Shown here: piece after piece, positions 119-59,886 of the stretch
Layout of the letters: each line of letters begins with the position of its first letter
Numbering within the stretch: the stretch's first letter is position 1
From: Escherichia phage vB_EcoM_CRJP21
Reading direction: 5' to 3' (one strand)
Sequence record: OQ708376.1
Length of the DNA stretch: 64,000 nucleotides
Made by a program: the position numbers and the translations under genes
The notes under the pieces: model-generated
The model's database searches: none
Seen by the model: the letters and a program-made list of their open reading frames with translations, nothing else
What the model was told of the DNA's origin: nothing

Positions 119-454
<336 letters not shown>

Positions 455-455
455 A

Positions 456-638
456 ATGACACACGAAGAATGGATGTCCAAACAGCATAAAGAACATGAC
501 TGCTTTGGGAATGGCATTCGTCAGGTACATTATGATATATTAAGAGATGAAAATCTTTTCAGGTCATATGTTTTGGATACCAGAAAACCCTGGTTTATAT
601 GCGAACTGGCATTTAGAAAGTCAAATAATCAAAACTAA
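456..638 (+). CDS. small hypothetical protein, MTHEEWM family
   Basis: N-terminus MTHEEWM shared with 1127..1291 and 1288..1452; start trimmed from track ORF 438. Confidence 0.45.
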   Translation: MTHEEWMSKQHKEHDCFGNGIRQVHYDILRDENLFRSYVLDTRKPWFICELAFRKSNNQN

Positions 639-654
639 ACAAGGAATACAAAAA

Positions 655-873
655 ATGGAAACAACTTTATTAGAAGTTATTCAATCATTAAAACCTGAAG
701 ATGAGGTTCAAGTACTACTACATGGTTATCGTGTAAAAGGTACTGTGGTTTTAGTCAATGATACAACATTGGTTATTACAGAAACAAACCCATATGATAG
801 TAATCAACTTGCCAATATCCATATCGATATCACTGGAATTATTGGTGTCGGTGTATCTAAAACACTTGCATAA
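655..873 (+). CDS. hypothetical protein
   Basis: track ORF 547..873 trimmed to internal ATG with aaggaa SD. Confidence 0.4.
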   Translation: METTLLEVIQSLKPEDEVQVLLHGYRVKGTVVLVNDTTLVITETNPYDSNQLANIHIDITGIIGVGVSKTLA

Positions 874-906
874 ATCATTAATTCATTATATAATGGGACA
901 TAACAT

Positions 907-1022
<116 letters not shown>

Positions 1023-1026
1023 AATA

Positions 1027-1103
1027 CGGGGTATAGCACAATTGGATAGTGCAAGAGAATTCTAATCTCTAGGTTGGGGGTTCAAGTCCCTCTACCTCGG
1101 CCA
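1027..1103 (+). tRNA. tRNA-Arg (anticodon TCT)
   Basis: acceptor cggggta/tacctcg, T-arm ggggg-ttcaagt-ccctc, anticodon loop attctaa, CCA. Confidence 0.7.
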
Positions 1104-1126
1104 ATTTTAATTAAAGGTTAAAAACC

Positions 1127-1453
<327 letters not shown>

Positions 1454-1461
1454 AAAAAAAG

Positions 1462-1875
<414 letters not shown>

Positions 1876-1935
1876 CTAAATAATTCAGTACTGAGGATAT
1901 TAATATGTTTAAAGATGAACGTCCAGATTTGTAAA

Positions 1936-2066
<131 letters not shown>

Positions 2067-2069
2067 TAC

Positions 2070-2229
<160 letters not shown>

Positions 2230-2244
2230 CAATGCGAGGTATAA

Positions 2245-2502
<258 letters not shown>

Positions 2503-2510
2503 GAATTTAA

Positions 2511-2912
2511 ATGAAAAAGAATGACTTGATCAAAATGCTTCAAGAAATTGACGGCAATCCAGAGATTGTTATTTGGAATGGATACGTCGATGATTATATG
2601 AACATCGAAAAAGGCTTGACTAAAATCACTCTAGTCAAAGAAACCGAACAGTTTCTTCAGGGTGCATTAGAGCACGAATGGTGTGAACGTAACAATACAT
2701 TCGACATTCCAGAAGACCAACGAACCAAGATTGCAGAACGTGCTAAAGAACTGCATAAGAAACGCGAATACGATTTCCAGAACCCATATGTCACTGAAGA
2801 CGAATTCAATCGCTGGTACGGTAAAAAGAAATTGACAAAGTATGTCCTTTCACCTAAACTACGTGGTAAGACTTCACTTGGTGTATTCAACGCCGCAGAC
2901 TTAAACTACTAG
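2511..2912 (+). CDS. hypothetical protein (133 aa)
   Basis: ORF tiling with neighbours. Confidence 0.6.
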   Translation: MKKNDLIKMLQEIDGNPEIVIWNGYVDDYMNIEKGLTKITLVKETEQFLQGALEHEWCERNNTFDIPEDQRTKIAERAKELHKKREYDFQNPYVTEDEFNRWYGKKKLTKYVLSPKLRGKTSLGVFNAADLNY

Positions 2913-2921
2913 CGGGTATTA

Positions 2922-3286
<365 letters not shown>

Positions 3287-3287
3287 T

Positions 3288-3325
<38 letters not shown>

Positions 3326-3344
3326 AGAGGTACTTCGAGTATGC

Positions 3345-3471
<127 letters not shown>

Positions 3472-3531
3472 TACAACCGACAATGACGAAAGAACAGTTA
3501 TCAACATTTATCAACGCAGCATTAGATAAAA

Positions 3532-3563
<32 letters not shown>

Positions 3564-3615
3564 TACCAAGCAGCTTGAAGAACTTTGTAGTGCTGCACCT
3601 ATGCCGACTCTTGGC

Positions 3616-3716
<101 letters not shown>

Positions 3717-3728
3717 TATCTTACTTCT

Positions 3729-3818
<90 letters not shown>

Positions 3819-39246: not shown

Positions 39247-39588
39247 ATGCGTGAGTTTTTTGAATCTAATATAATGCTTGGTATTACACTGATATACATG
39301 TTTGTATTCTTGTTTTATCATTCAATTGTAATTAGTCTTTGGTATTTTAAAAGGAAAGTTGTTTTTAAATTGTATTCGTATGATAATGTATTCTTAGTTG
39401 TATATAGCATTATACAAGGTGGGTTTATTTTATTTGGTGTGATGACATATGTGATTTACATGTTACAAATTGATAATACACCACACATTACACAATATGT
39501 TGTGTTTTCAGGACTAATCGTCTGGTTATTGGTGTGTACTATGTATTTTATTATTAAAGCTCGTGATAACTTTAAATGGGGATTCTAA
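39247..39588 (+). CDS. small 3-TM membrane protein, R.NIPE family
   Basis: paralog family. Confidence 0.6.
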   Translation: MREFFESNIMLGITLIYMFVFLFYHSIVISLWYFKRKVVFKLYSYDNVFLVVYSIIQGGFILFGVMTYVIYMLQIDNTPHITQYVVFSGLIVWLLVCTMYFIIKARDNFKWGF

Positions 39589-39926
39589 TGTTAGAATTTT
39601 TTAAATCAGATACAATGATTAGTATTACTTTGATTTATCTGTTTGGTTTTTTCTTTTATCATGCACTAGTTGTAGTACTATGGTATTTTAAAAAGAAAAT
39701 TGTTTTTAAACTGTATCCAGTGAGGAATTCATCACTAGTTCTTTACACACTTGTTCAAGGTTTGTTTGCAATTGTTGGTCTTATGGCACACTTAATTTAT
39801 TGTGCTAATCCTCACTTGAACTCAATCTCACAATATATTGTATTCTTTGGGTTGTTCATTTGGTTAGTTGCATACTTAATCCATCTCATTATTCATGGTA
39901 GAGATAAAATTCGCGGAGACTTCTAA
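39588..39926 (+). CDS. small 3-TM membrane protein, R.NIPE family
   Basis: TAATG overlap; trimmed from track ORF 39576. Confidence 0.6.
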   Translation: MLEFFKSDTMISITLIYLFGFFFYHALVVVLWYFKKKIVFKLYPVRNSSLVLYTLVQGLFAIVGLMAHLIYCANPHLNSISQYIVFFGLFIWLVAYLIHLIIHGRDKIRGDF

Positions 39927-51412: not shown

Positions 51413-52522
51413 TTATTTTGGTAAATCAATTTTAGTAAAGACTGCAACATCCTCGATTGCACCTGGAATGGCGTAATACGATCCAGTACTATACACATCT
51501 CCATTTTTGGTTAATATCGATGTCAAACCATCACTAAAAAGAACATCCCTAATCTCACTAACTTCAACGGGTAATTGTAAATTGGTAGCACTATATATAG
51601 CACCAGTTTGAGAATTGTTTAATCCCAAACCACGGTTCGCCCCAACACCCTTCTGATATGTACTAGTAATTACCATTTGTGTAGCAGTATTTAAGGCAGG
51701 TGAATTCGTCATAAACAACGGAGAACTATTAGGCAAAGTACTTAAAGGAACTGCACGGAATGTAGTCGTACCTGAACTAAGAAAGTTTGGAGTTTGACCA
51801 CATACGAAATATGATGTACCATTATAGTAATTTAATGCATTACCACCAATGGCTGCATCGATTACACCAGAACTACGCAATCCCCAAGTGTTAATTTGTG
51901 TTTGGTTCCCCGTACCATGCTGCCCACTACTATTCCATCCAGAACTATATAGCTTATTATCTAATGTAAGATACATACTATCATTCGCATTGGTCATTAC
52001 TTTACGAACGTTCGTAGCACATTGAGTTAATGTGTAAATTGATGATGAACCAATACCCAAAGAACCACGATATCCATTATCTCCTGCACCATAGAGTACT
52101 GAATTAGTGCTAAGTACAAATATTAAACCATTTGTGCATACAATATTAGCAATTTCACTGACTGGTATAGCATTGGTAAACCAACTAGTCCTTTCAACTA
52201 ATACAGTACTGTAAGAAGTAGTTGTAGAAGATGAGAACCAGTACGTTTGACCTGATGTCCATATAGTATTATCATTTTTAATAATAACAAGTGTACGATC
52301 ACCCACGAAAAAATTAGAAACATCTGCACTTACTAATGTCCACGAAGACACCGTGTTGGTATTACCATTTCCAGATTCACCACCTTGATTTCTACCTATG
52401 TAATATAAATCATGTGAATCAGTCAATAAGAATTGACCTTGTGTAGAAGCACCAACTTTAATTATTTTTTTAGGACCAGGGACAATATTTCCATACCTAA
52501 TTATTCTTCCAAAAGGTAACAT
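51413..52522 (-). CDS. RCC1-like repeat protein, paralog 8
   Basis: MLPFGRIIRY leader; start trimmed. Confidence 0.7.
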   Translation of the reverse strand: MLPFGRIIRYGNIVPGPKKIIKVGASTQGQFLLTDSHDLYYIGRNQGGESGNGNTNTVSSWTLVSADVSNFFVGDRTLVIIKNDNTIWTSGQTYWFSSSTTTSYSTVLVERTSWFTNAIPVSEIANIVCTNGLIFVLSTNSVLYGAGDNGYRGSLGIGSSSIYTLTQCATNVRKVMTNANDSMYLTLDNKLYSSGWNSSGQHGTGNQTQINTWGLRSSGVIDAAIGGNALNYYNGTSYFVCGQTPNFLSSGTTTFRAVPLSTLPNSSPLFMTNSPALNTATQMVITSTYQKGVGANRGLGLNNSQTGAIYSATNLQLPVEVSEIRDVLFSDGLTSILTKNGDVYSTGSYYAIPGAIEDVAVFTKIDLPK

Positions 52523-52530
52523 ATTCCCTC

Positions 52531-53733
52531 CTATTGTTGCCATAACTGCGTTGGCATTAATGTTAGTGTAGTAATACTATAAGTGCCATCTGGCAATCTA
52601 CCACCATTTCCATTCCAGCCACCACATGCATATAATTTATAATCTTTAGTAATTATTATGGTTCTGCTCCAATCTTTAGATGCCATAAGAACATTTTCAT
52701 AACCACCACTTATTGCACTAAGATTAAAAATATTCCAAGTTCTAACTAATGTATTAGTTCCATTACCTTCTTGACCATATGAGTTAGCACCACTACTTCT
52801 AACATATGGTGCGTATTGTGCCATAGGTGCACCAATTGATGCATTTCCCATATTACTTGGACAAATAAAAGTACTGTACTTACTTACATCAACCGTGACC
52901 GATGTGTTCCTAATTGGTGTTAGCTGATTTACCGATGTAGTCGTACCATTACCCGCTTGTCCAGTACTGTTAGCCCCGCTATAATATACAGACCCACCAG
53001 TAGTAAACCACCAAGTAACATCGTATGTAGTACTAATATGTTCTACATTACTAATCACGAATTTGTTCAAATATACAACAGAACTACCACCACATCCACT
53101 TTCACCAAAGTTATCCTTACCACAAAACCATGCATCTTTATTTGATTTGATATAGTGCGTTCCTTGTAATGAACATGCCATATGTGTAACTTCACCCATA
53201 TTAGTCATAACTGTGAGTGTAGGGATGGAATTTTTATTACCAGAGCCACATTCACCATTGGTATTTCTTCCACACGCAATTACTCTACCATCGGTTAATA
53301 ATATTCTAGTACTTTCACCTATATATACACTCTTGATCATATTAGCCATAACACCTATTTTATTAAATGCAACAGTAACATCAGTCCATGTTGTCAAATA
53401 ACCATTAACAGGTGTTGCATCTCCATAATCAGAAAATGCAGCCACAGACCCAGTGTAGTATATTTTATTATCCAAATCAATCATCAACGAACCTTGAACA
53501 CCAAGCCAAAAGGCTGCACAGTTCCTTGCAAGTACTGTAAATGACGAAACTGCTGCTGAATTCCCAAGACCAAATTGATACATGTTATTACTACCATAAC
53601 CATATAAAGTATTAGTTGGGTTATGTAGATACATACAGTTTGTATAATGTTGTTGTAAAACATCTGAGAACTCTACAGGTTCTGGACCTGGTGCAATATT
53701 TGCGTACTTAACCATTCTTCCAAAAGGTAACAT
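52531..53733 (-). CDS. RCC1-like repeat protein, paralog 9
   Basis: MLPFGRMVKY leader. Confidence 0.7.
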   Translation of the reverse strand: MLPFGRMVKYANIAPGPEPVEFSDVLQQHYTNCMYLHNPTNTLYGYGSNNMYQFGLGNSAAVSSFTVLARNCAAFWLGVQGSLMIDLDNKIYYTGSVAAFSDYGDATPVNGYLTTWTDVTVAFNKIGVMANMIKSVYIGESTRILLTDGRVIACGRNTNGECGSGNKNSIPTLTVMTNMGEVTHMACSLQGTHYIKSNKDAWFCGKDNFGESGCGGSSVVYLNKFVISNVEHISTTYDVTWWFTTGGSVYYSGANSTGQAGNGTTTSVNQLTPIRNTSVTVDVSKYSTFICPSNMGNASIGAPMAQYAPYVRSSGANSYGQEGNGTNTLVRTWNIFNLSAISGGYENVLMASKDWSRTIIITKDYKLYACGGWNGNGGRLPDGTYSITTLTLMPTQLWQQ

Positions 53734-53835
53734 ATTTCCCTCCTTATTAATTATATCATATTTACCCCATAAAGAAAACCCTTGACATCCTTTCAGTACT
53801 GGTGTACTATAGAAGGAATATAAGGAGAACTACAC
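53734..53835. promoter_or_regulatory. divergent control region between the RCC1-like array (-) and the small-gene array (+)
   Basis: plus strand ttgaca-N17-tactat at about 53782-53810; minus strand tataat-like element plus SD aaggaggg. Confidence 0.5.
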
Positions 53836-54063
53836 ATGACAAATACTCTTAAGTACTACCTCAATACTCTAAATGAACTAGAGTACGGGGAATTTCTCGC
53901 GGATAGTTCGTGGCTAATTGAGCTAAAAAATTATAATAGTCCAGGATGCACCCTTATGATGAACAATGCAATTGATACCCTCATTGTGAGTATTTTACAC
54001 AGCAACATCTGCGGGGATAGCAATAAACAATTATCAAAAATCTTAGTACTGCTATCTATATGA
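53836..54063 (+). CDS. small protein, KEFY...LIYRY family member
   Basis: first of tandem ~60-aa paralogs. Confidence 0.55.
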   Translation: MTNTLKYYLNTLNELEYGEFLADSSWLIELKNYNSPGCTLMMNNAIDTLIVSILHSNICGDSNKQLSKILVLLSI

Positions 54064-54263
54064 ACATTGAACAGTACTACATCGATGCACTACCAACAAA
54101 AGGTCTACGAGAAAGCCTACTGTATACACAAAATACTTTTATACACTACAAACGTTGTCCTAAACTCCTGAACTCGTACAGGAGTAATATCATAAGAAAT
54201 GCTTTACAAGGGGCAGAAAGTATGCAATACTATTATATCCTTGCCCTTTTAATCGAGTACTAA
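54060..54263 (+). CDS. small protein, KEFY family
   Basis: tandem paralog. Confidence 0.55.
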   Translation: MNIEQYYIDALPTKGLRESLLYTQNTFIHYKRCPKLLNSYRSNIIRNALQGAESMQYYYILALLIEY

Positions 54264-54264
54264 T

Positions 54265-54474
54265 ATGAATACTGAACATAAAGAATTCTACACCAAATAC
54301 CTTAGCAACGAAGAACAATTGTTTCTAAGGAGTGTATCACCTTTAAGTATAGATACACCACACGCCAGAGATTGCTTTAATAATTGTATACGTAGTACTA
54401 TAGAAGCAATCGAATGTAATAACAAAAATATTATGTACTCAGGTTTAATAGGACTAATATATTTCTATGAATAA
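54265..54474 (+). CDS. small protein, KEFY family
   Basis: MNTEHKEFY...; close paralog of 57105..57314. Confidence 0.6.
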   Translation: MNTEHKEFYTKYLSNEEQLFLRSVSPLSIDTPHARDCFNNCIRSTIEAIECNNKNIMYSGLIGLIYFYE

Positions 54475-54661
54475 TCATAAAGATTTCTATTGTAGTAAAC
54501 TACCCAAACAAGAACAGCTATCATTCTCTTTAGCACCACCTATGAGAAAGGATAATCTGTATTATAATTACGATTTCAGGATGGTGACACGTTATGCAAT
54601 AGAACATACGTTCCCTGCAACTAAGTACCGCTCTATCCTGAACCTCATCTTTAAGTTCTAA
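54467..54661 (+). CDS. small protein, KEFY family
   Basis: MNNHKDFY...; paralog of 57307..57495. Confidence 0.6.
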   Translation: MNNHKDFYCSKLPKQEQLSFSLAPPMRKDNLYYNYDFRMVTRYAIEHTFPATKYRSILNLIFKF

Positions 54662-54708
54662 AAGGTACACCAGGGACCGAGTACTTTAACATAGTAAGGC
54701 TAATTACA

Positions 54709-54894
54709 ATGAATCATATAAGCTACTACTACCAACAACTATCCGACAGAGACAAGTACAGTCACAACTCCCATGTGTGGTACTACAAACGCGGCAGTAT
54801 AAGAGACAAACAACATTACTTCTGTATTTCTATTAAAGAAGCACTGACAACTAAGTACACGTACCGAGCAGTACTGAAACTTATTGAAATGTAA
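54709..54894 (+). CDS. small protein, KEFY family
   Basis: tandem paralog. Confidence 0.55.
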   Translation: MNHISYYYQQLSDRDKYSHNSHVWYYKRGSIRDKQHYFCISIKEALTTKYTYRAVLKLIEM

Positions 54895-54902
54895 GGAAGA
54901 AA

Positions 54903-55085
54903 ATGAACATAGAATTCTATTTAACTAAACTACAACACGCCGAAAGATTCAACTTCAATAAGTTCAATATTTTCTACAATTGCGGGAACAAAAAAGATAA
55001 ACACACCTTCCTATATGTCGTCACAAGAGATGCACAAAACGAAAAGTACACATACAGAGAAGTAATGAAACTAATCGCTATTTAA
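54903..55085 (+). CDS. small protein, KEFY family
   Basis: tandem paralog; ...KYTYREVMKLIAI. Confidence 0.55.
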   Translation: MNIEFYLTKLQHAERFNFNKFNIFYNCGNKKDKHTFLYVVTRDAQNEKYTYREVMKLIAI

Positions 55086-55093
55086 GGAATACT

Positions 55094-55272
55094 ATGCAAC
55101 AATTCTATAGAGAACGTATAACCATAAAAGACCGTTTCATGTACGACACCTTCGTGAAGTACTACAAACTAGGAACAAAAAGTACTAAAAATATTAATCT
55201 CAATAGCTGCATTTATGCTGTACTAACACAAGATAATCCCTACAGGGAAATCCTCGCCCTGGCATCTATATA
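55094..55272 (+). CDS. small protein, KEFY family (59 aa)
   Basis: hand-translated MQQFYRERITIKDRF...; below track cutoff. Confidence 0.45.
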
Positions 55273-55283
55273 AAGGAAACCAA

Positions 55284-55955
55284 ATGAAACTTAATGCACA
55301 CAGCAAACAATACCTTAAGCACTTTAAGTACCTCAATAGTATTCAGGCAGAATCAGTTACATCTGCATATACGTATCACCCGAATGTACTAAAGAAACGA
55401 AATAAAAAGGAAAAATCCAGTACAAATGGAGTTAACGTATCAAAGAACCTTGAATTGTACATGAAGAAAAATAATATAGCTGTTCATTATATGAATATCT
55501 ATAATACTGATTTAAAAGTATTGAGTACTAATACGAGCACAAAGGTACTAAAGAACGCATCCTTCATCATCAATATGCAGTTGGATAATACCCCGTGCAC
55601 TTTAATGCTATACTTCGGGAATACATACTTCTTCGGGAATTGTAACACCTCCCACGATGTCAATACAGCACAATTCCAAATGGGTGGCATATACTCTACT
55701 GATGCAGAAAAAGTACACGAGAATATGCACTTCTGGCAAGCACAACGTACAGAAGAAACTGATACAGTACTACAATTCCTCAAAGAATTACAAGGCAAAG
55801 AATTATCCGAGGAAGAACTATTCATGTACAGTACTGTAATCGATAATCCAGCACTCTATAAAAATGCGTACAATCTGACAAAACATGTACAGGAAATTAT
55901 CAGTACTAATAAGAAAATGCATCACCTCATTACGTATATTACAAACTATGTATAA
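55284..55955 (+). CDS. hypothetical protein (223 aa) inserted within the small-gene array
   Basis: ORF; unrelated to flanking paralogs. Confidence 0.6.
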   Translation: MKLNAHSKQYLKHFKYLNSIQAESVTSAYTYHPNVLKKRNKKEKSSTNGVNVSKNLELYMKKNNIAVHYMNIYNTDLKVLSTNTSTKVLKNASFIINMQLDNTPCTLMLYFGNTYFFGNCNTSHDVNTAQFQMGGIYSTDAEKVHENMHFWQAQRTEETDTVLQFLKELQGKELSEEELFMYSTVIDNPALYKNAYNLTKHVQEIISTNKKMHHLITYITNYV

Positions 55956-56148
55956 AGAATTCTACATAAAAGAACTACCAAAGTTTCTACAAGGAAATCT
56001 ATTAGAAGATGAACCTCGCGGTATTGACTGTATATATGAAGCTGATTACTTCCGTACATGTACTGAACAAGTACTTAATGAAGAAGCTAATGAAAACAAT
56101 TATCAAGTACAACTGTACCACACCCTGTACCTTGCGTTCCAGTACTAA
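55948..56148 (+). CDS. small protein, KEFY family
   Basis: MYKEFYIKEL...; trimmed from track ORF 55885. Confidence 0.55.
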   Translation: MYKEFYIKELPKFLQGNLLEDEPRGIDCIYEADYFRTCTEQVLNEEANENNYQVQLYHTLYLAFQY

Positions 56149-56157
56149 GGATAATAT

Positions 56158-56343
56158 ATGTATAAAGAATACTACATAGAGAAACTCCCAATGTATCTCC
56201 AACACCTTGTACCAAACGTTGCATTGGGTATAGAAAAAAACTACGAAAAAGACTACTTCATTCAGTGCACTAAATCCTCGATATATATTGAAGACTATAA
56301 TCGAGTACTGTATCATATCCTTTTACTAATATATAGGTACTAA
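56158..56343 (+). CDS. small protein, KEFY family
   Basis: MYKEYY...LLLIYRY. Confidence 0.6.
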   Translation: MYKEYYIEKLPMYLQHLVPNVALGIEKNYEKDYFIQCTKSSIYIEDYNRVLYHILLLIYRY

Positions 56344-56344
56344 T

Positions 56345-56527
56345 ATGCACAAAGAATACTACACACAATTTCTCCCCAGCATTTTTGAACACTACGCCAG
56401 ATATAAAGTCCCTATGGATAACGATTTGGCAGTACTGGGATTCAATAACTGCATAGAACGAAGTATAGAAAATAGTAGTAGTTATGACCAGCTATATAAC
56501 ACTATCCTACTTATATTCAGGTACTAA
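56345..56527 (+). CDS. small protein, KEFY family
   Basis: MHKEYY...ILLIFRY. Confidence 0.6.
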   Translation: MHKEYYTQFLPSIFEHYARYKVPMDNDLAVLGFNNCIERSIENSSSYDQLYNTILLIFRY

Positions 56528-56528
56528 C

Positions 56529-56717
56529 ATGCATAAAGAATACTACACAAAACATTTCCCAATGTACCTCAGAACTAATCTATTAGATAAACCTCGCGGT
56601 ATCAATGCACAAAACGATAAAGTGTACTTTACTATGTGCACTAAAGCATGTATACTAGATTTTGACAGCTATCATCGAGTACTGTATCATACCCTGTACC
56701 TAGCTTTCGTATTCTAA
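56529..56717 (+). CDS. small protein, KEFY family
   Basis: MHKEYY...; trimmed from track ORF 56484. Confidence 0.6.
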   Translation: MHKEYYTKHFPMYLRTNLLDKPRGINAQNDKVYFTMCTKACILDFDSYHRVLYHTLYLAFVF

Positions 56718-56726
56718 GAGAACAAT

Positions 56727-56912
56727 ATGCATAAAGAATTCTACTTAAGCCATCTCGATCTAAACTCCCAAATGCTTATACCACAAATCCCAATAGATAT
56801 CAAGGATAAGAAAAATACCGAACAATTCATTTACCATACACAGTGTGCGATCACCCCAAATTACATTCCATATGAATTGTACTACATTCTCGCCCTAATA
56901 TATAGGTACTAA
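56727..56912 (+). CDS. small protein, KEFY family
   Basis: MHKEFY...LALIYRY. Confidence 0.6.
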   Translation: MHKEFYLSHLDLNSQMLIPQIPIDIKDKKNTEQFIYHTQCAITPNYIPYELYYILALIYRY

Positions 56913-56913
56913 T

Positions 56914-57099
56914 ATGCATAGAGAATACTACACACAATTTGTTAAAGGGAACTACAAACATGCCGTACCCAGAACCCCTTTAAATTTTCATGACCCAAGT
57001 ACTATATTCTTGTTCCATGACGCAATACGTACAGTACTCAATACTAAAGATGAAGATGTGCAGTACGTATTCTTACTATTACTTATATACAGACACTAA
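56914..57099 (+). CDS. small protein, KEFY family
   Basis: MHREYY...LLLIYRH. Confidence 0.6.
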   Translation: MHREYYTQFVKGNYKHAVPRTPLNFHDPSTIFLFHDAIRTVLNTKDEDVQYVFLLLLIYRH

Positions 57100-57104
57100 C
57101 TAAT

Positions 57105-57314
57105 ATGAATAAAGAACATAAAGAATTCTACTCCAAATACATAAGCCCCTCAGAACAAATGTTTCTAAGGACTACTCCACCTTTAAGTACTAATACATTT
57201 TTCGGCAGAGTATGCTACAATAATTGTATTCAAATGACTTTAAACGCAAACGAAGATGGTAACAGTACTAACCTGTACTCAGGTATCATAGGTATACTAT
57301 TCCTGTATGAATAA
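57105..57314 (+). CDS. small protein, KEFY family
   Basis: MNKEHKEFY... Confidence 0.6.
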   Translation: MNKEHKEFYSKYISPSEQMFLRTTPPLSTNTFFGRVCYNNCIQMTLNANEDGNSTNLYSGIIGILFLYE

Positions 57315-57495
57315 TTACAAAGACTTCTATTTGAATACACTACCTACTGTACTTTCTCTAAGTGCTCAATGTAAAATCCCGCTGGATAATGCTTACGCCA
57401 GATATAGCTATTCCATAACTGTTAATCGATGTATAGAGAATCATTGCAGTACTAACCAGTACTATAACATAATCCTACTTATATTCAGGTACTAA
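57307..57495 (+). CDS. small protein, KEFY family
   Basis: MNNYKDFY...ILLIFRY. Confidence 0.6.
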   Translation: MNNYKDFYLNTLPTVLSLSAQCKIPLDNAYARYSYSITVNRCIENHCSTNQYYNIILLIFRY

Positions 57496-57496
57496 T

Positions 57497-57679
57497 ATGA
57501 ATAAAGAACATAAAGAATTCTATATACGAAAACTAACATTCGTCCCCGTAAGAATATATAAAGAATGCGACCCAAGATTATACCTATGGCACTTCAATGA
57601 GTGCATAAAAGATTCTATATACCCTAAGAACTACAAAGAACAATTGTGCTCAGTACTAACACTAGTACTATCATATTAA
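57497..57679 (+). CDS. small protein, KEFY family
   Basis: MNKEHKEFY... Confidence 0.6.
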   Translation: MNKEHKEFYIRKLTFVPVRIYKECDPRLYLWHFNECIKDSIYPKNYKEQLCSVLTLVLSY

Positions 57680-57694
57680 TTAATAGAGAATACT

Positions 57695-57886
57695 ATGTAT
57701 AAAAACTTCTATATAAGTAAACTAAAAGAAAATGAACAAGTATGGATTAGATCTATAATAGTACTGGCATTTAATAGATATGCATTTAACAGATGTACCG
57801 AGATTGCTATAGACCCTTATAATATTAAAGAGAATGTACAGTATAATCAGTACTACTATATCTTAATGCTTATATATAGGAAGTAA
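57695..57886 (+). CDS. small protein, KEFY family
   Basis: MYKNFY...LMLIYRK. Confidence 0.6.
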   Translation: MYKNFYISKLKENEQVWIRSIIVLAFNRYAFNRCTEIAIDPYNIKENVQYNQYYYILMLIYRK

Positions 57887-58514
57887 TTAAACACAAGTAG
57901 ACAGGGGAAGCTCCTAGTGAACAACCTTTATGTACAGGCGAATTGTTAAAATTCAGCCTGGACAAATGCGATCACTAGGATTCTCCCCAGGCTAAACCCC
58001 GTAATCATAGGTAGTCATAAGTAATCATATATAAACATTTATATGAGCACCGTAGAATCACAGAATGATTATATATGATTCAGTACTGATTAGTATAGAC
58101 AAGAATTCTCAAGAATGCACGGGAAGGATTCAGTACTGATATGCCACTAAGTAGGCAGAGGAAGTCTGCCGTACTTTGTAGTTTCCAAGCTCCTTTTCCA
58201 TTTTTCAAATTACATCAAATGTAATCAAAAGTAATCACGCAATGATTAGTACTGAATTATTACTTTCACCTTAATTACAATTACCCTTTTACCCTTCGGG
58301 GTAAAATTCAATTACCCCTTGAGGCTCCAGCAAAAAGTTGGTTAGTACTCCATCCTAAATCTCGATCCTAAAAATTTTGGAGTACCTATGAAATAAAAGT
58401 TGGATCTTCGAAAGTTGAAATTTACGTTGGGACGTTTATGATTTGTGGGATATAATGATGTTTGTAGACGGGTAGTTCTCAAGAATATCAGTACTGAAAG
58501 ATGAAAGAAAGTTA

Positions 58515-58542
58515 TTGACTTTATGATTCAGTACTGTATAAT
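58515..58542 (+). promoter_or_regulatory. orphan sigma70-like promoter in ORF-poor region
   Basis: ttgact-N16-tataat; no credible ORF within about 1 kb downstream. Confidence 0.5.
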
Positions 58543-58869
58543 GTTCTACATAGGGTGATGAGTTGCTGCGAACAATTCATTTACTCTACCTCCTGTCGTG
58601 AGACAGTACAGAAAAGATAGTTCCTCCTGTGGTGGTACATCTTTTTGAACCTCATATGAAAATCGTAATAACAGTACTGATATTAACAGAATGGTGTCAG
58701 TACTGATTTTAATCTAAAGCATTATGCCACCAGCACAAGCTGGTGGATTCCCTCTAACAGTATTCAGTACTACATGATGGTCTTCATCCTCCTAGGGTAA
58801 CATAGTGAGGGCTATGATGGCAGTACTGAATACTCCCTTTCAAAAGATAGATCTATGGTATAGTACTGA

Positions 58870-59060
58870 CGGATTTTGGGCGTAGTTACCCTGGATGGAT
58901 TTTGGGCGTAGATATGTCTAGCCCTCCAGAAGTCTGGAAGTAAAGATGGCTATCCATCTAGACGGCTAAACGGCTAGATTTCTGGATGGCTGGATGGCTA
59001 GACGTTTGGACGGCTAAACGGCTAGATGGTTACACGTCTGGAAGTATAGACGGCTAAATC
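58870..59060. repeat. iteron-like short direct repeats
   Basis: GATTTTGGGCGTAG at 58872 and 58889 (variant at 59221); GACGGCTAAACGGCTAGAT at 58961 and 59009; GGATGGCT x2; GACGGCTAAA x3. Confidence 0.6.
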
Positions 59061-59683
59061 AAAATTTTATTTTGTTTTTTCCAATAGTTCCCCTACCGCG
59101 TGGGGATAGTTTCCCCGCAGTATCTGGTGTTAGATTTTTCTGAATCTGGAATCATTATCTTATAAACTGGGGGCAATGTCAACGGCCTGGCCGGATATTT
59201 TTAAAAATTTTTTCAGTACTGAATTTTGGGCGTAACTATGCACCCGGTGGGCTTGAGTCTTTCTCGACTTGATGGAACTATTATACAGTACTGGAAAAAT
59301 AAAGCAATACCCTGGAAGCAAAAAAGTTTTAATTAATTTGCTTGCTATCCTGGGCCGGACTATGGTACTATATTTCAGTACTGAGAAAGTGCGTTTACCT
59401 GCTAGGGTGCGGGAGTGTATCCTTTTTTTATATCTTGAATTTTGGACGGATCTTCCCACCCCCTGGGGTATCCGCTTTCTCGCGTCTATGTAGTAATTAT
59501 ACGCTTTTTCAGGATCAAGTCAATACCTAAAAACAAAATAATTGAAAATAATTTAACGCGTTTAAACGGCCTGTAAAGCCCTGGAATGATTGGAATGGTG
59601 CAAATGTATAGCTTATGTGTATTAATGCGTTAGAATGCGTCTGAGGACGTTTTACGGGGTATAGGGATGATTTAGTGGATTGA

Positions 59684-59772
59684 TTCAGTACTGAATAATA
59701 GTACTCCTATATAGAAAGATAGTTCCCCTGGATGATTGCAGTACTGAATAATAGTACTCCTATATAGAAAGA
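59684..59772. repeat. two copies of a ~35-bp direct repeat
   Basis: tcagtactgaataatagtactcctatatagaaaga at about 59686 and about 59737. Confidence 0.6.
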
Positions 59773-59802
59773 AAACTATTTTAAAAGTATTTGTAGAAAG
59801 TA

Positions 59803-59865
59803 CTTGCACCGTACTGATAAAAGCGTATAATGTTTTACATCGAGAGCGGGAACACTTCCCGCTAC
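59803..59865 (+). promoter_or_regulatory. early promoter plus 5'-UTR stem-loop module
   Basis: acttgcac...tataat then hairpin agcggga-acac-ttcccgct. Confidence 0.55.
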
Positions 59866-59886
59866 ACATTAAGAGAGATTAAAACG

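What the first reader, a model, noticed from the sequence alone, without database searches (positions are those of the whole stretch)
57900..58000. Nested inverted repeats forming a candidate structured RNA just after the miniprotein array
GGGGAAGCTCCTAGTGA (about 57904-57921) is nearly the reverse complement of TCACTAGGATTCTCCCC (about 57973-57989). The two enclose a second hairpin, AGCCTGG...CCAGGCT. This gives a ~90-nt two-level stem structure at the 3' end of the array, which could be a terminator, processing signal or small RNA.
Basis: seen in the sequence. Interest (0 to 1): 0.4.

Follow-up and report, generated by a model that had tools for sequence, protein, structure and literature searches.

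The report
Conserved hairpin beside jumbo-phage genome end
The inverted repeat is real, but it belongs with the physical end of this jumbo phage's DNA rather than with the small-gene array: it sits a whole number of 10-bp steps from the end-cutting site in four phage genera, much like a hairpin proposed to help phage T7 mature its DNA ends.

Summary
The window is an Asteriusvirus (PBECO4/121Q-like) jumbo coliphage. The long-range stem (57898-57920 / 57972-57994) is real and far more stable than shuffled sequence as RNA or DNA, on both strands. The true apical hairpin is 57935-57960.

The context changes the interpretation. Three related records with determined termini all start at the base matching window 58150. 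The hairpin therefore lies in unique DNA about 200 bp left of the right copy of a ~21-kb direct terminal repeat (DTR).

Hairpins occupy the same place in four genera (Asterius-, Alcyoneus-, Mimasvirus, fENko-Kae01). They share an invariant ATC-N4-GGATTC motif, while the basal helix sequence differs completely yet stays complementary. In two genera no same-strand gene lies upstream.

The distance from GGATTC to the cut is 142-302 bp and equals 2 mod 10 in all 22 genomes read. The spacer is a 10-bp repeat lattice.

Best reading: a folding DNA element of the end-maturation/packaging signal, laid out like T7's hairpin next to its concatemer junction. It is not a canonical terminator and matches no Rfam family. 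An RNA role is not excluded.

The parts
57695..57886 (+). Last gene of the miniprotein array (63 aa). Context only: its stop codon ends 11 nt before the hairpin.
57898..57920 (.). 5' arm of the long hairpin: TAG / GGGGA / internal-loop AGC / TCCTAGTGA. This is the lineage-variable arm.
57935..57960 (.). Apical hairpin CAGGC-GAATT-GTTAA-AATTC-A-GCCTG. In relatives it is a longer stem, TTTAACAnnn/nnnTGTTAAA, with compensatory changes. The window type carries a 14-nt deletion of that stem's 5' arm.
57972..57994 (.). 3' arm of the long hairpin: TCACTAGGA / internal-loop TTC / TCCCC / CTA. It is part of a 40-nt core (57944-57983) with no substitution between Turkey5, JNE01 (one of its two unit copies) and the window.
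57971..57983 (+). ATCACTAGGATTC: the ATC-N4-GGATTC motif invariant in four genera. It is the only match in the 64-kb window on either strand.
57987..57996 (.). CCAGGCTAAA, 3' arm of the alternative helix with TTCAGCCTGG (57952-57961). It excludes the apical hairpin and overlaps the outer arm.
   Evidence: I18; ph0011 folds this way
58001..58149 (.). 10-bp repeat lattice between hairpin and cut. It holds GTAATCAT-type units, AAGAATG-type units and two in-register TCAGTACTGA blocks (58080-58089, 58130-58139).
   Evidence: lag-10 autocorrelation 0.44 against about 0.25
58128..58152 (+). End-cutting site context ATTCAGTACTGATATGCCACTA|AGT. The cut is inferred between 58149 and 58150.
58150..64000 (+). 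Start of the ~21-kb direct terminal repeat, which runs beyond the window. It begins with the terminator-like hairpin GGCAGAGGAAGTCTGCC + T-rich (58154-58170), followed by ~1.7 kb of conserved non-coding DNA.

Best explanation
The hairpin is a cis-acting DNA element of the genome-end (terminal repeat) maturation and packaging region of RaK2-like jumbo phages.

Shown: it lies in unique DNA just left of the right copy of the ~21-kb direct terminal repeat. It is followed by a lattice of 10-bp repeats that ends at the conserved cut CCACTA|AGT. Its invariant motif (ATC-N4-GGATTC) sits an integral number of 10-bp units from the cut.

Inferred: proteins of the end-processing machinery (terminase or an accessory nuclease) assemble along the phased lattice. 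The inverted repeat folds out as a hairpin or cruciform when the DNA is nicked or unwound. The hairpin, with its conserved internal loop, then serves as a recognition, nicking or fold-back priming structure. This is the role proposed for the palindrome 190 bp left of the T7 concatemer junction during duplication of the terminal repeat.
For: 1. Terminus position. The records of fEgEco12, BF17 and vB_Ec-M-J all start at AGTAGGCAGAGG, which is window 58150, and the same sequence recurs once about 21 kb from their right ends. For fEgEco12 the 20,993-bp repeat was set by PhageTerm and restriction digests (PMC13070987). For BF17 it was set by PhageTerm (PMC10059673). The hairpin is single-copy in these records.

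2. Cut context. The 25-nt context is 100% identical in the Klebsiella Alcyoneusvirus phages although the flanks are unalignable. The Muenster record (PhageTerm) ends ...GATATGCCACTA and starts AGT.

3. Hairpins at the same place in four genera share ATC-N4-GGATTC immediately 5' of the basal 3' arm. The motif is expected 0.37 times per 128 kb searched and occurs once in this window.

4. The basal helix differs entirely in sequence yet stays complementary: GGGGA:TCCCC, CTAGAT:ATCTAG, ACAGGTGT:ACACCTGT, TGTTTGA:TCAAACA, ACTCCCCGTA:TACGGGGAGT. The apical stem has two pairs with double compensatory changes. On alignment A2, 93% of cells are paired and 0 of 500 shuffles reach the observed covariation score.

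5. In GAP32 and fENko-Kae01 the upstream neighbour gene is on the other strand.

6. The distance from GGATTC to the cut is 142, 172, 182, 192, 202, 212, 222, 242 or 302, which equals 2 mod 10 in 22 of 22 genomes. A non-repeat insertion in this spacer is exactly 30 nt.

7. The homology block boundary falls at the hairpin apex. The array to the left is 66-73% identical to JNE01. From 57940 rightwards identity is 87%.

8. T7 has the same layout: last gene, then a palindrome at 39,568-39,608 centred 190 bp left of the terminal repeat, then short direct repeats, then the repeat. Chung, Nardone and Hinkle 1990 reported a hairpin end on T7 concatemers as a possible processing intermediate (cited).
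Against: - No experiment here shows that the DNA folds or is cut near the hairpin.
- The termini were determined for relatives, not for this isolate, and the GAP32 cut is inferred by similarity.
- The role of the T7 hairpin is itself only a model.
- Phage ph0011 has lost the 5' arm and keeps only smaller hairpins, so the long stem is not strictly indispensable.
- The 10-bp quantisation could come largely from slippage within 10-bp repeats rather than from selection for phase. Ten bp is also not exactly one B-DNA turn.
- fENko-Kae01 shows no clear lag-10 periodicity.
- In Asterius- and Alcyoneusvirus the hairpin also sits just after a + strand gene, so an RNA role there remains possible.
Confidence: 0.55

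Rival explanations
1. RNA element at the 3' end of the early array operon. The long imperfect duplex would act as a 3' stabiliser or an RNase III processing site, or as an inefficient terminator.
For: - It starts 11 nt after the last stop codon of a co-directional operon driven by a sigma-70-type promoter at 53782-53810.
- The RNA fold is strong.
- In RaK2 and Muenster the hairpin also follows a + strand gene by 9 nt.
- A rod of ~30 bp with internal loops looks like a phage RNase III site (from general knowledge).
Against: - There is no U-tract and no terminator call.
- A terminator-like hairpin lies 160 nt further on, and in UE-S1, TH47 and ph0011 one lies directly after the element. Termination therefore seems to be provided separately.
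- Homologues in GAP32 and fENko-Kae01 lack an upstream + strand gene.
- One strand carries a conserved sequence motif, and spacing to a DNA cut site is quantised in 10-bp steps.
- There is no consistent strand bias in stability.
Confidence: 0.17
2. Transcriptional insulator between the unique region and the terminal repeat. It would stop leftward (- strand) transcripts that leave the repeat, or act as a barrier in both directions.
For: - In RaK2 and Muenster the - strand reads as a GC-rich stem followed by CUUUUUAAU, a canonical terminator.
- In the window the - strand fold is the most stable in 64 kb and is followed by a U-rich stretch.
- Strong - strand promoter-like sites lie at 59523 and 59182.
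Against: - fENko-Kae01 has its A-run on the opposite side, so no U-tract follows the stem on the - strand. GAP32 has no run on either side.
- Neither the conserved GGATTC motif nor the 10-bp register is explained.
Confidence: 0.1
3. Replication-related hairpin: a priming signal, or part of an origin, next to the genome end.
For: - The hairpin is followed by phased short repeats and by many promoter-like CAGTACTG sites.
- GC skew changes sign at about 58 kb.
Against: - GC skew in this window mostly follows gene orientation and the array's codon composition.
- No initiator gene or recognised origin motif was identified.
- The lattice ends exactly at the packaging cut.
Confidence: 0.1
4. A by-product with no function: a quasi-palindrome created and 'corrected' by template switching or recombination at the boundary between a variable and a conserved module.
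For: - The homology breakpoint lies at the apex.
- JNE01 and ph0011 carry 31-nt unit duplications, and the window type carries a 14-nt deletion.
Against: - The position, the motif and the pairing are kept across four genera whose flanks are unalignable.
- The 40-nt core has no substitution where about 5-7 are expected from flank divergence.
Confidence: 0.06

Closest known systems
Phage T7 palindrome left of the concatemer junction (hairpin-end intermediate; Chung, Nardone and Hinkle 1990)
   Same: - Both are imperfect palindromes in unique DNA just after the last gene, centred ~190 bp (T7) or ~204 bp (here) left of the right terminal repeat.
- Both are followed by short direct repeats that run up to the repeat.
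- Both genomes have direct terminal repeats that must be regenerated from concatemers.
   Different: - There is no sequence homology.
- The T7 repeat is 160 bp; here it is ~21 kb.
- The T7 palindrome is 41 nt; here the element is ~100 nt with a conserved internal loop and a conserved one-strand motif.
- The 10-bp register to the cut has not, to my knowledge, been described for T7.
- The phage families are unrelated: T7 uses its own RNA polymerase, whereas these phages use host sigma-70 promoters.
Terminase recognition regions with phased repeats (lambda cosB R sites, P1 pac hexamer repeats)
   Same: An array of short repeated motifs lies immediately next to a defined cleavage site, with spacing in helical register.
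   Different: - Those systems give cohesive ends (lambda) or headful packaging (P1), not long exact terminal repeats.
- Neither includes a covarying hairpin.
- The binding protein here is unknown.
Intrinsic terminators and RNase III sites in phage operons
   Same: A stable stem-loop lies directly after the last gene of an operon.
   Different: - There is no U-tract.
- The element is much longer than a terminator stem.
- One strand has a conserved sequence.
- The element is present where there is no upstream same-strand gene.

Membership tests
Intrinsic (Rho-independent) terminator | Compact GC-rich stem-loop (loop 3-8 nt) | tested here: not met
   The element is a ~100-nt multi-helix rod. The scan of 53500-60500 does not list it.
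Intrinsic (Rho-independent) terminator | U-tract immediately 3' of the stem on the transcribed strand | tested here: not met
   The + strand tail is AAACCCCGTAATCATAGG. The - strand tail is only moderately U-rich.
Any curated RNA family (Rfam 15) | Score at or above the family's gathering threshold | tested here: not met
   Only tRNAs pass in the window. Around the element the best hits have E-values of 1.6-10, far below threshold.
T7-type terminus-proximal palindrome | Imperfect inverted repeat in unique DNA left of the right terminal repeat, ~200 bp away | tested here: met
   The centre at 57946 is 204 nt left of the repeat start at 58150. In T7 the distance is 190 bp.
T7-type terminus-proximal palindrome | Short direct repeats between the palindrome and the terminal repeat | tested here: met
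   A 10-bp lattice spans 58001-58149. T7 has CCTAAAG-type repeats.
T7-type terminus-proximal palindrome | Genome with exact direct terminal repeats | tested here: met
   Internal duplicates were computed for BF17, fEgEco12 and Ec-M-J. PhageTerm and restriction data are in PMC13070987 and PMC10059673. This was shown for close relatives, not for this isolate.
T7-type terminus-proximal palindrome | Hairpin-ended DNA intermediates in infected cells | not testable with these tools
   Requires DNA from infected cells.
T7-type terminus-proximal palindrome | Sequence relatedness to the T7 element | tested here: not met
   There is no alignable similarity. Only a shared hexamer, GGATTC, lies in the T7 5' arm, and that is compatible with chance (about 2%).
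RNase III processing site | About two turns or more of imperfect dsRNA | tested here: met
   27-38 predicted pairs: 27 in the window fold, 38 in the long variants.
RNase III processing site | Transcribed, and cleaved in an rnc-dependent way | not testable with these tools
   No transcript data are available.
Terminase recognition (pac/cos-type) region | Lies adjacent to the genome-end cleavage site, with repeated motifs in register | tested here: met
Terminase recognition (pac/cos-type) region | Bound or cut by the phage terminase | not testable with these tools
   Requires biochemistry.

The most novel reading that the evidence does not exclude
The hairpin, the 10-bp lattice and the CCACTA|AGT cut together form the machine-readable signal that lets RaK2-like jumbo phages regenerate a 20-kb terminal repeat from a concatemer carrying a single copy. 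A phased protein array would position a nick, and the covarying hairpin with its GGATTC internal-loop motif would fold back to prime or guide copying of the repeat. This would be a T7-like solution that arose independently and scaled up 100-fold.
Probability: 0.25. Interest if true: 0.8.

Novelty: new variant of a known kind. Interest (0 to 1): 0.55.

Why it matters
How phages with long exact terminal repeats (T5, SPO1, RaK2-like jumbo phages) make two repeat copies per packaged genome is still unresolved. Even for T7 the hairpin model remains a model.

This work points to a candidate cis signal that is conserved and covarying, sits at a precisely phased distance from a mapped cut site, and is present in four genera. 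That gives specific mutations to test: arm disruption against compensatory restoration, +5 bp against +10 bp spacers, and changes to GGATTC.

It also has practical value. It lets the physical ends of the many circularly permuted Asteriusvirus and Alcyoneusvirus assemblies be placed by sequence alone (…GATATGCCACTA|AGT…). It also warns against annotating small ORFs or small RNAs across this region.

Tried and rejected
- Rfam, at gathering and at permissive thresholds, gave nothing.
- A tRNA/tmRNA scan gave nothing at the locus.
- Looking for more homologues largely failed. The IMG/VR pattern scans returned only 121Q and RaK2 plus chance hits. The protein-anchored IMG/VR scan returned only 121Q.
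- A 21-codon ORF inside the hairpin (57930-57995) and an 11-codon ORF (MLKFSLDKCDH) were considered and rejected. Indels between variants shift the frame, and ph0011 loses the stop codon.
- The alternative helix TTCAGCCTGG/CCAGGCTAAA is compatible with all Asteriusvirus variants, but I found no counterpart in the other-genus hairpins (inspection). I treat it as secondary.
- GC-skew minimum as an origin signal: skew mostly tracks gene orientation and array composition.
- The right boundary of the repeat in fEgEco12 (20,993|20,994) has neither the cut motif nor a GGATTC hairpin.
- A strand-of-function test by comparing fold energies was inconclusive.

Full report
**Identity of the window.** The region is 98.7% identical to Escherichia phage PBECO4. 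It matches 41 jumbo-phage records, mostly Asteriusvirus. The 'miniprotein array' is a run of ~60-aa paralogous genes on the + strand from about 53.8 to 57.9 kb. It is driven by a sigma-70-type promoter at 53782-53810, and its last gene is 57695-57886.

**Check of the observation.**
- The outer inverted repeat exists at 57898-57920 / 57972-57994: 23 nt, 78% complementary.
- Folding supports the long-range stem. As RNA the + strand gives -36.7 kcal/mol (z = -4.6) and the - strand -43.9 (z = -5.1). As DNA the values are -21.8 (z = -5.3) and -19.5 (z = -4.6).
- In a scan of 6389 overlapping 110-nt windows it is the most stable fold on the - strand and about seventh on the + strand.
CCAGGCT (57987-57993) lies 3' of the outer 3' arm and overlaps it. 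AGCCTGG/CCAGGCT is therefore a competing helix, not an enclosed one.
- The enclosed hairpin is CAGGC-GAATT-GTTAA-AATTC-A-GCCTG, 57935-57960.

**Variation within the genus.**
- Thirty-five phage records carry the element. I read 17 of them and found 14 distinct sequences among the first 16 (fEgEco12 was read later).
- The 3' half is nearly invariant. The 40-nt core TGTTAAAATTCAGCCTGGACAAATGCGATCACTAGGATTC has no substitution even in Turkey5 and JNE01, whose flanks differ by about 13-25%.
- The 5' half varies, yet almost every variant folds into the same rod, at -37 to -50 kcal/mol.
- The apical stem shows compensatory changes: TTTAACAATT/AATTGTTAAA, TTTAACATAT/ATATGTTAAA and TTTAACATCT/AGATGTTAAA.
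- In the Turkey5 lineage the basal GGGGA:TCCCC is replaced by CTAGAT:ATCTAG.
- On a seven-sequence alignment 93% of cells pair and three pairs change on both sides. None of 500 shuffles reaches the covariation score or the paired fraction. The sample is small and the structure was derived from one member.
- The window type has lost the 5' arm of the apical stem through a 14-nt deletion. JNE01 and ph0011 carry a 31-nt duplication of the unit. ph0011 has also lost the basal 5' arm and folds into the alternative helix instead.
- Stability shows no consistent strand bias.

**Not a known RNA or a canonical terminator.**
- Rfam gives nothing.
- No U-tract follows the stem on the + strand, and the terminator scan does not call it.
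- A terminator-like hairpin lies 160 nt downstream at 58154-58170.
- UE-S1, TH47 and ph0011 have an extra terminator-like hairpin of exactly 30 nt inserted right after the element.

**The decisive context: the genome end.**
- Against the divergent relative JNE01 the array is only 66-73% identical. Homology resumes at 57940, the hairpin apex, and continues at 87% for 2.7 kb, most of it non-coding.
- In records of 367 kb or more the hairpin is single-copy and lies 20-23 kb from one end, whereas the downstream block occurs more than once.
- The records of BF17, fEgEco12 and vB_Ec-M-J all begin at the same base, AGTAGGCAGAGG. That base corresponds to window 58150.
- The same sequence recurs once internally. 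This gives direct terminal repeats of 20,590, 20,993 and 21,525 bp.
- The fEgEco12 ends were determined with PhageTerm and confirmed by restriction digests (PMC13070987). Those of BF17 were determined with PhageTerm (PMC10059673).
- The hairpin therefore lies in unique DNA. Its centre is 204 nt left of the right repeat copy, within the 263-nt gap between the last array gene and the repeat.

**Conservation across genera.**
- The 25 nt around the cut (ATTCAGTACTGATATGCCACTA|AGT) are 100% identical in the Klebsiella Alcyoneusvirus phages although their flanks do not align.
- The Muenster record, whose ends were set by PhageTerm, ends ...GATATGCCACTA and starts AGT.
- fENko-Kae01 (PhageTerm) has ...CAGTACTTACCCCCTTCCGCTA|TATCTT. 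GAP32 has the matching ...CCCCTTCCACTA|TATCTG, where the cut is inferred.
- Each of these has a significant hairpin about 140-210 nt to the left of the cut:
  - RaK2 and Muenster: ACTCCCCGTA-[AAACnnGATCAAACGGATTC]-TACGGGGAGT
  - fENko-Kae01: ACAGGTGT-AGC-TCC-...-GGA-TTCA-ACACCTGT
  - GAP32: TGTTTGA-T-TCC-...-GGA-T-TCAAACA
- All share ATC-N4-GGATTC directly 5' of the basal 3' arm. That motif occurs once in the 64-kb window, where 0.37 matches are expected by chance on the two strands together.
- Asteriusvirus and fENko-Kae01 also share the AGC/TTC internal loop and the TCC:GGA helix.
- The basal helix has five unrelated but complementary sequences.
- In GAP32 and fENko-Kae01 the upstream neighbour gene is on the opposite strand. 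The element therefore travels with the terminus, not with the array or any + strand operon.

**Phasing.**
- I measured the distance from the G of GGATTC to the last base before the cut. It is 172 in the window, PBECO4, 121Q, JNE01, JP4, Ec-M-J and GAP32.
- It is 182 in A4 and RaK2, 192 in ph0011, and 202 in seven Asteriusvirus genomes.
- It is 212 in Muenster, 222 in UE-S1, 242 in TH47, 302 in slurp01 and 142 in fENko-Kae01.
- All 22 values equal 2 modulo 10. BF17 and Ec-M-J have one extra A at the cut itself.
- The spacer has a lag-10 autocorrelation of 0.39-0.47 against about 0.25 at other lags. fENko-Kae01 is the exception at 0.30.
- Within Asterius- and Alcyoneusvirus the TCAGTACTGA blocks are in the same register.
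- Slippage among 10-bp repeats explains part of this. The exact 30-nt non-repeat insertion, and the shared residue across genera with unalignable spacers, point to a constraint on register in duplex DNA.

**Interpretation.**
- Complementarity that survives complete sequence turnover means the repeat must fold at some stage.
- A one-strand conserved motif and a conserved internal loop suggest recognition of the folded form.
- The 10-bp register to a mapped DNA cut ties the element to end processing.
- T7 shows the same layout: gene 19.5 stop at 39,538, palindrome at 39,568-39,608 centred 190 bp left of the 160-bp repeat, then short direct repeats. A hairpin end at T7 concatemers was proposed as a processing intermediate for duplicating the repeat (Chung, Nardone and Hinkle 1990, cited; the requirement for repeat duplication is summarised).
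- I therefore favour (0.55) a DNA-level role in end maturation or packaging. The specific fold-back, nicking or priming step is inference.
- Rivals are an RNA 3' element of the array (0.17), a transcriptional insulator (0.10), a replication or priming signal (0.10) and a non-functional recombination by-product (0.06).

**Limits.**
- There are no wet-lab data.
- The ends are known for relatives only, and the GAP32 cut is inferred.
- ph0011 shows that the long stem can be lost.

Noticed in passing
whole window; e.g. 1477, 18452, 33353, 53794, 58529, 62575: The palindrome CAGTACTG occurs 54 times against 0.9 expected. The best copies sit just upstream of the -10 box in strong sigma-70-type promoters (GTACTTGACw-N7-TTCAGTACTGTATAATG). 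Many others lie inside genes. The same AGTACT block forms the 10-bp lattice at the genome end and is shared with Alcyoneusvirus, GAP32 and fENko-Kae01. No description was found in the literature search.
   Followed up: partly
58128-58152: The genome-end cut context ATTCAGTACTGATATGCCACTA|AGT is 100% identical between Asteriusvirus and Klebsiella Alcyoneusvirus phages. It could be used to place the ends of permuted assemblies.
   Followed up: yes
58150-59830: The first ~1.7 kb of the terminal repeat is non-coding yet 87-98% conserved. It holds 10 CAGTACTG sites and several of the most stable + strand folds in the window: 58721 (-44.5), 58911 (-47.9) and 59381 (-38.9). The + strand folds are 4-13 kcal/mol more stable than the - strand folds, which suggests RNAs.
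   Followed up: partly
58928-59055: A run of 8-bp periodic repeats (GGCTAGAC, GGCTAAAC, GGATGGCT). It gives weak matches near the record starts of Erwinia, Serratia and GAP32 jumbo phages and in some T5-like phages.
   Followed up: no
59083-59112: TAGTTCCCCTACCGCGTGGGGATAGTTTCC resembles the E. coli type I-E CRISPR repeat as I recall it: AGTTCCCC and GGGGATA flanks with the same 8-nt spacing. It might be a solitary repeat unit, but the similarity is weak (about 17 of 29) and was not tested.
   Followed up: no
L004 (UE-S1), L017 (TH47), L019 (ph0011), directly after ...CCCCGTAA: An exactly 30-nt terminator-like hairpin, CTCTACAGAGAAGC-NNNN-GCTTCTCTTTG, is inserted right after the big hairpin. 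Its loop and the adjoining stem positions differ between the three phages.
   Followed up: partly
59160-59459 (- strand): A 99-aa ORF, annotated as a gene in fEgEco12 (g614). A strong - strand promoter-like site lies at 59523-59496, inside the otherwise non-coding start of the repeat.
   Followed up: no
42712-53733 (- strand): Nine tandem paralogous genes of ~300-430 aa. They are annotated in relatives as RCC1-like 'regulator of chromosome condensation' proteins and are transcribed divergently from the array.
   Followed up: no
53836-57886: The miniprotein array has negative GC skew although it is on the + strand, unlike the other + strand genes. It is the most divergent block between Asteriusvirus genomes, at 66-73% identity to JNE01.
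   Followed up: no
141-3808: A cluster of seven tRNA genes: Gly, Ser x2, Arg, Met, Asn, Thr.
   Followed up: no
L032 (T7 39,568-39,608): The T7 terminus-proximal palindrome also contains GGATTC, in its 5' arm. This is probably chance (about 2%).
   Followed up: partly
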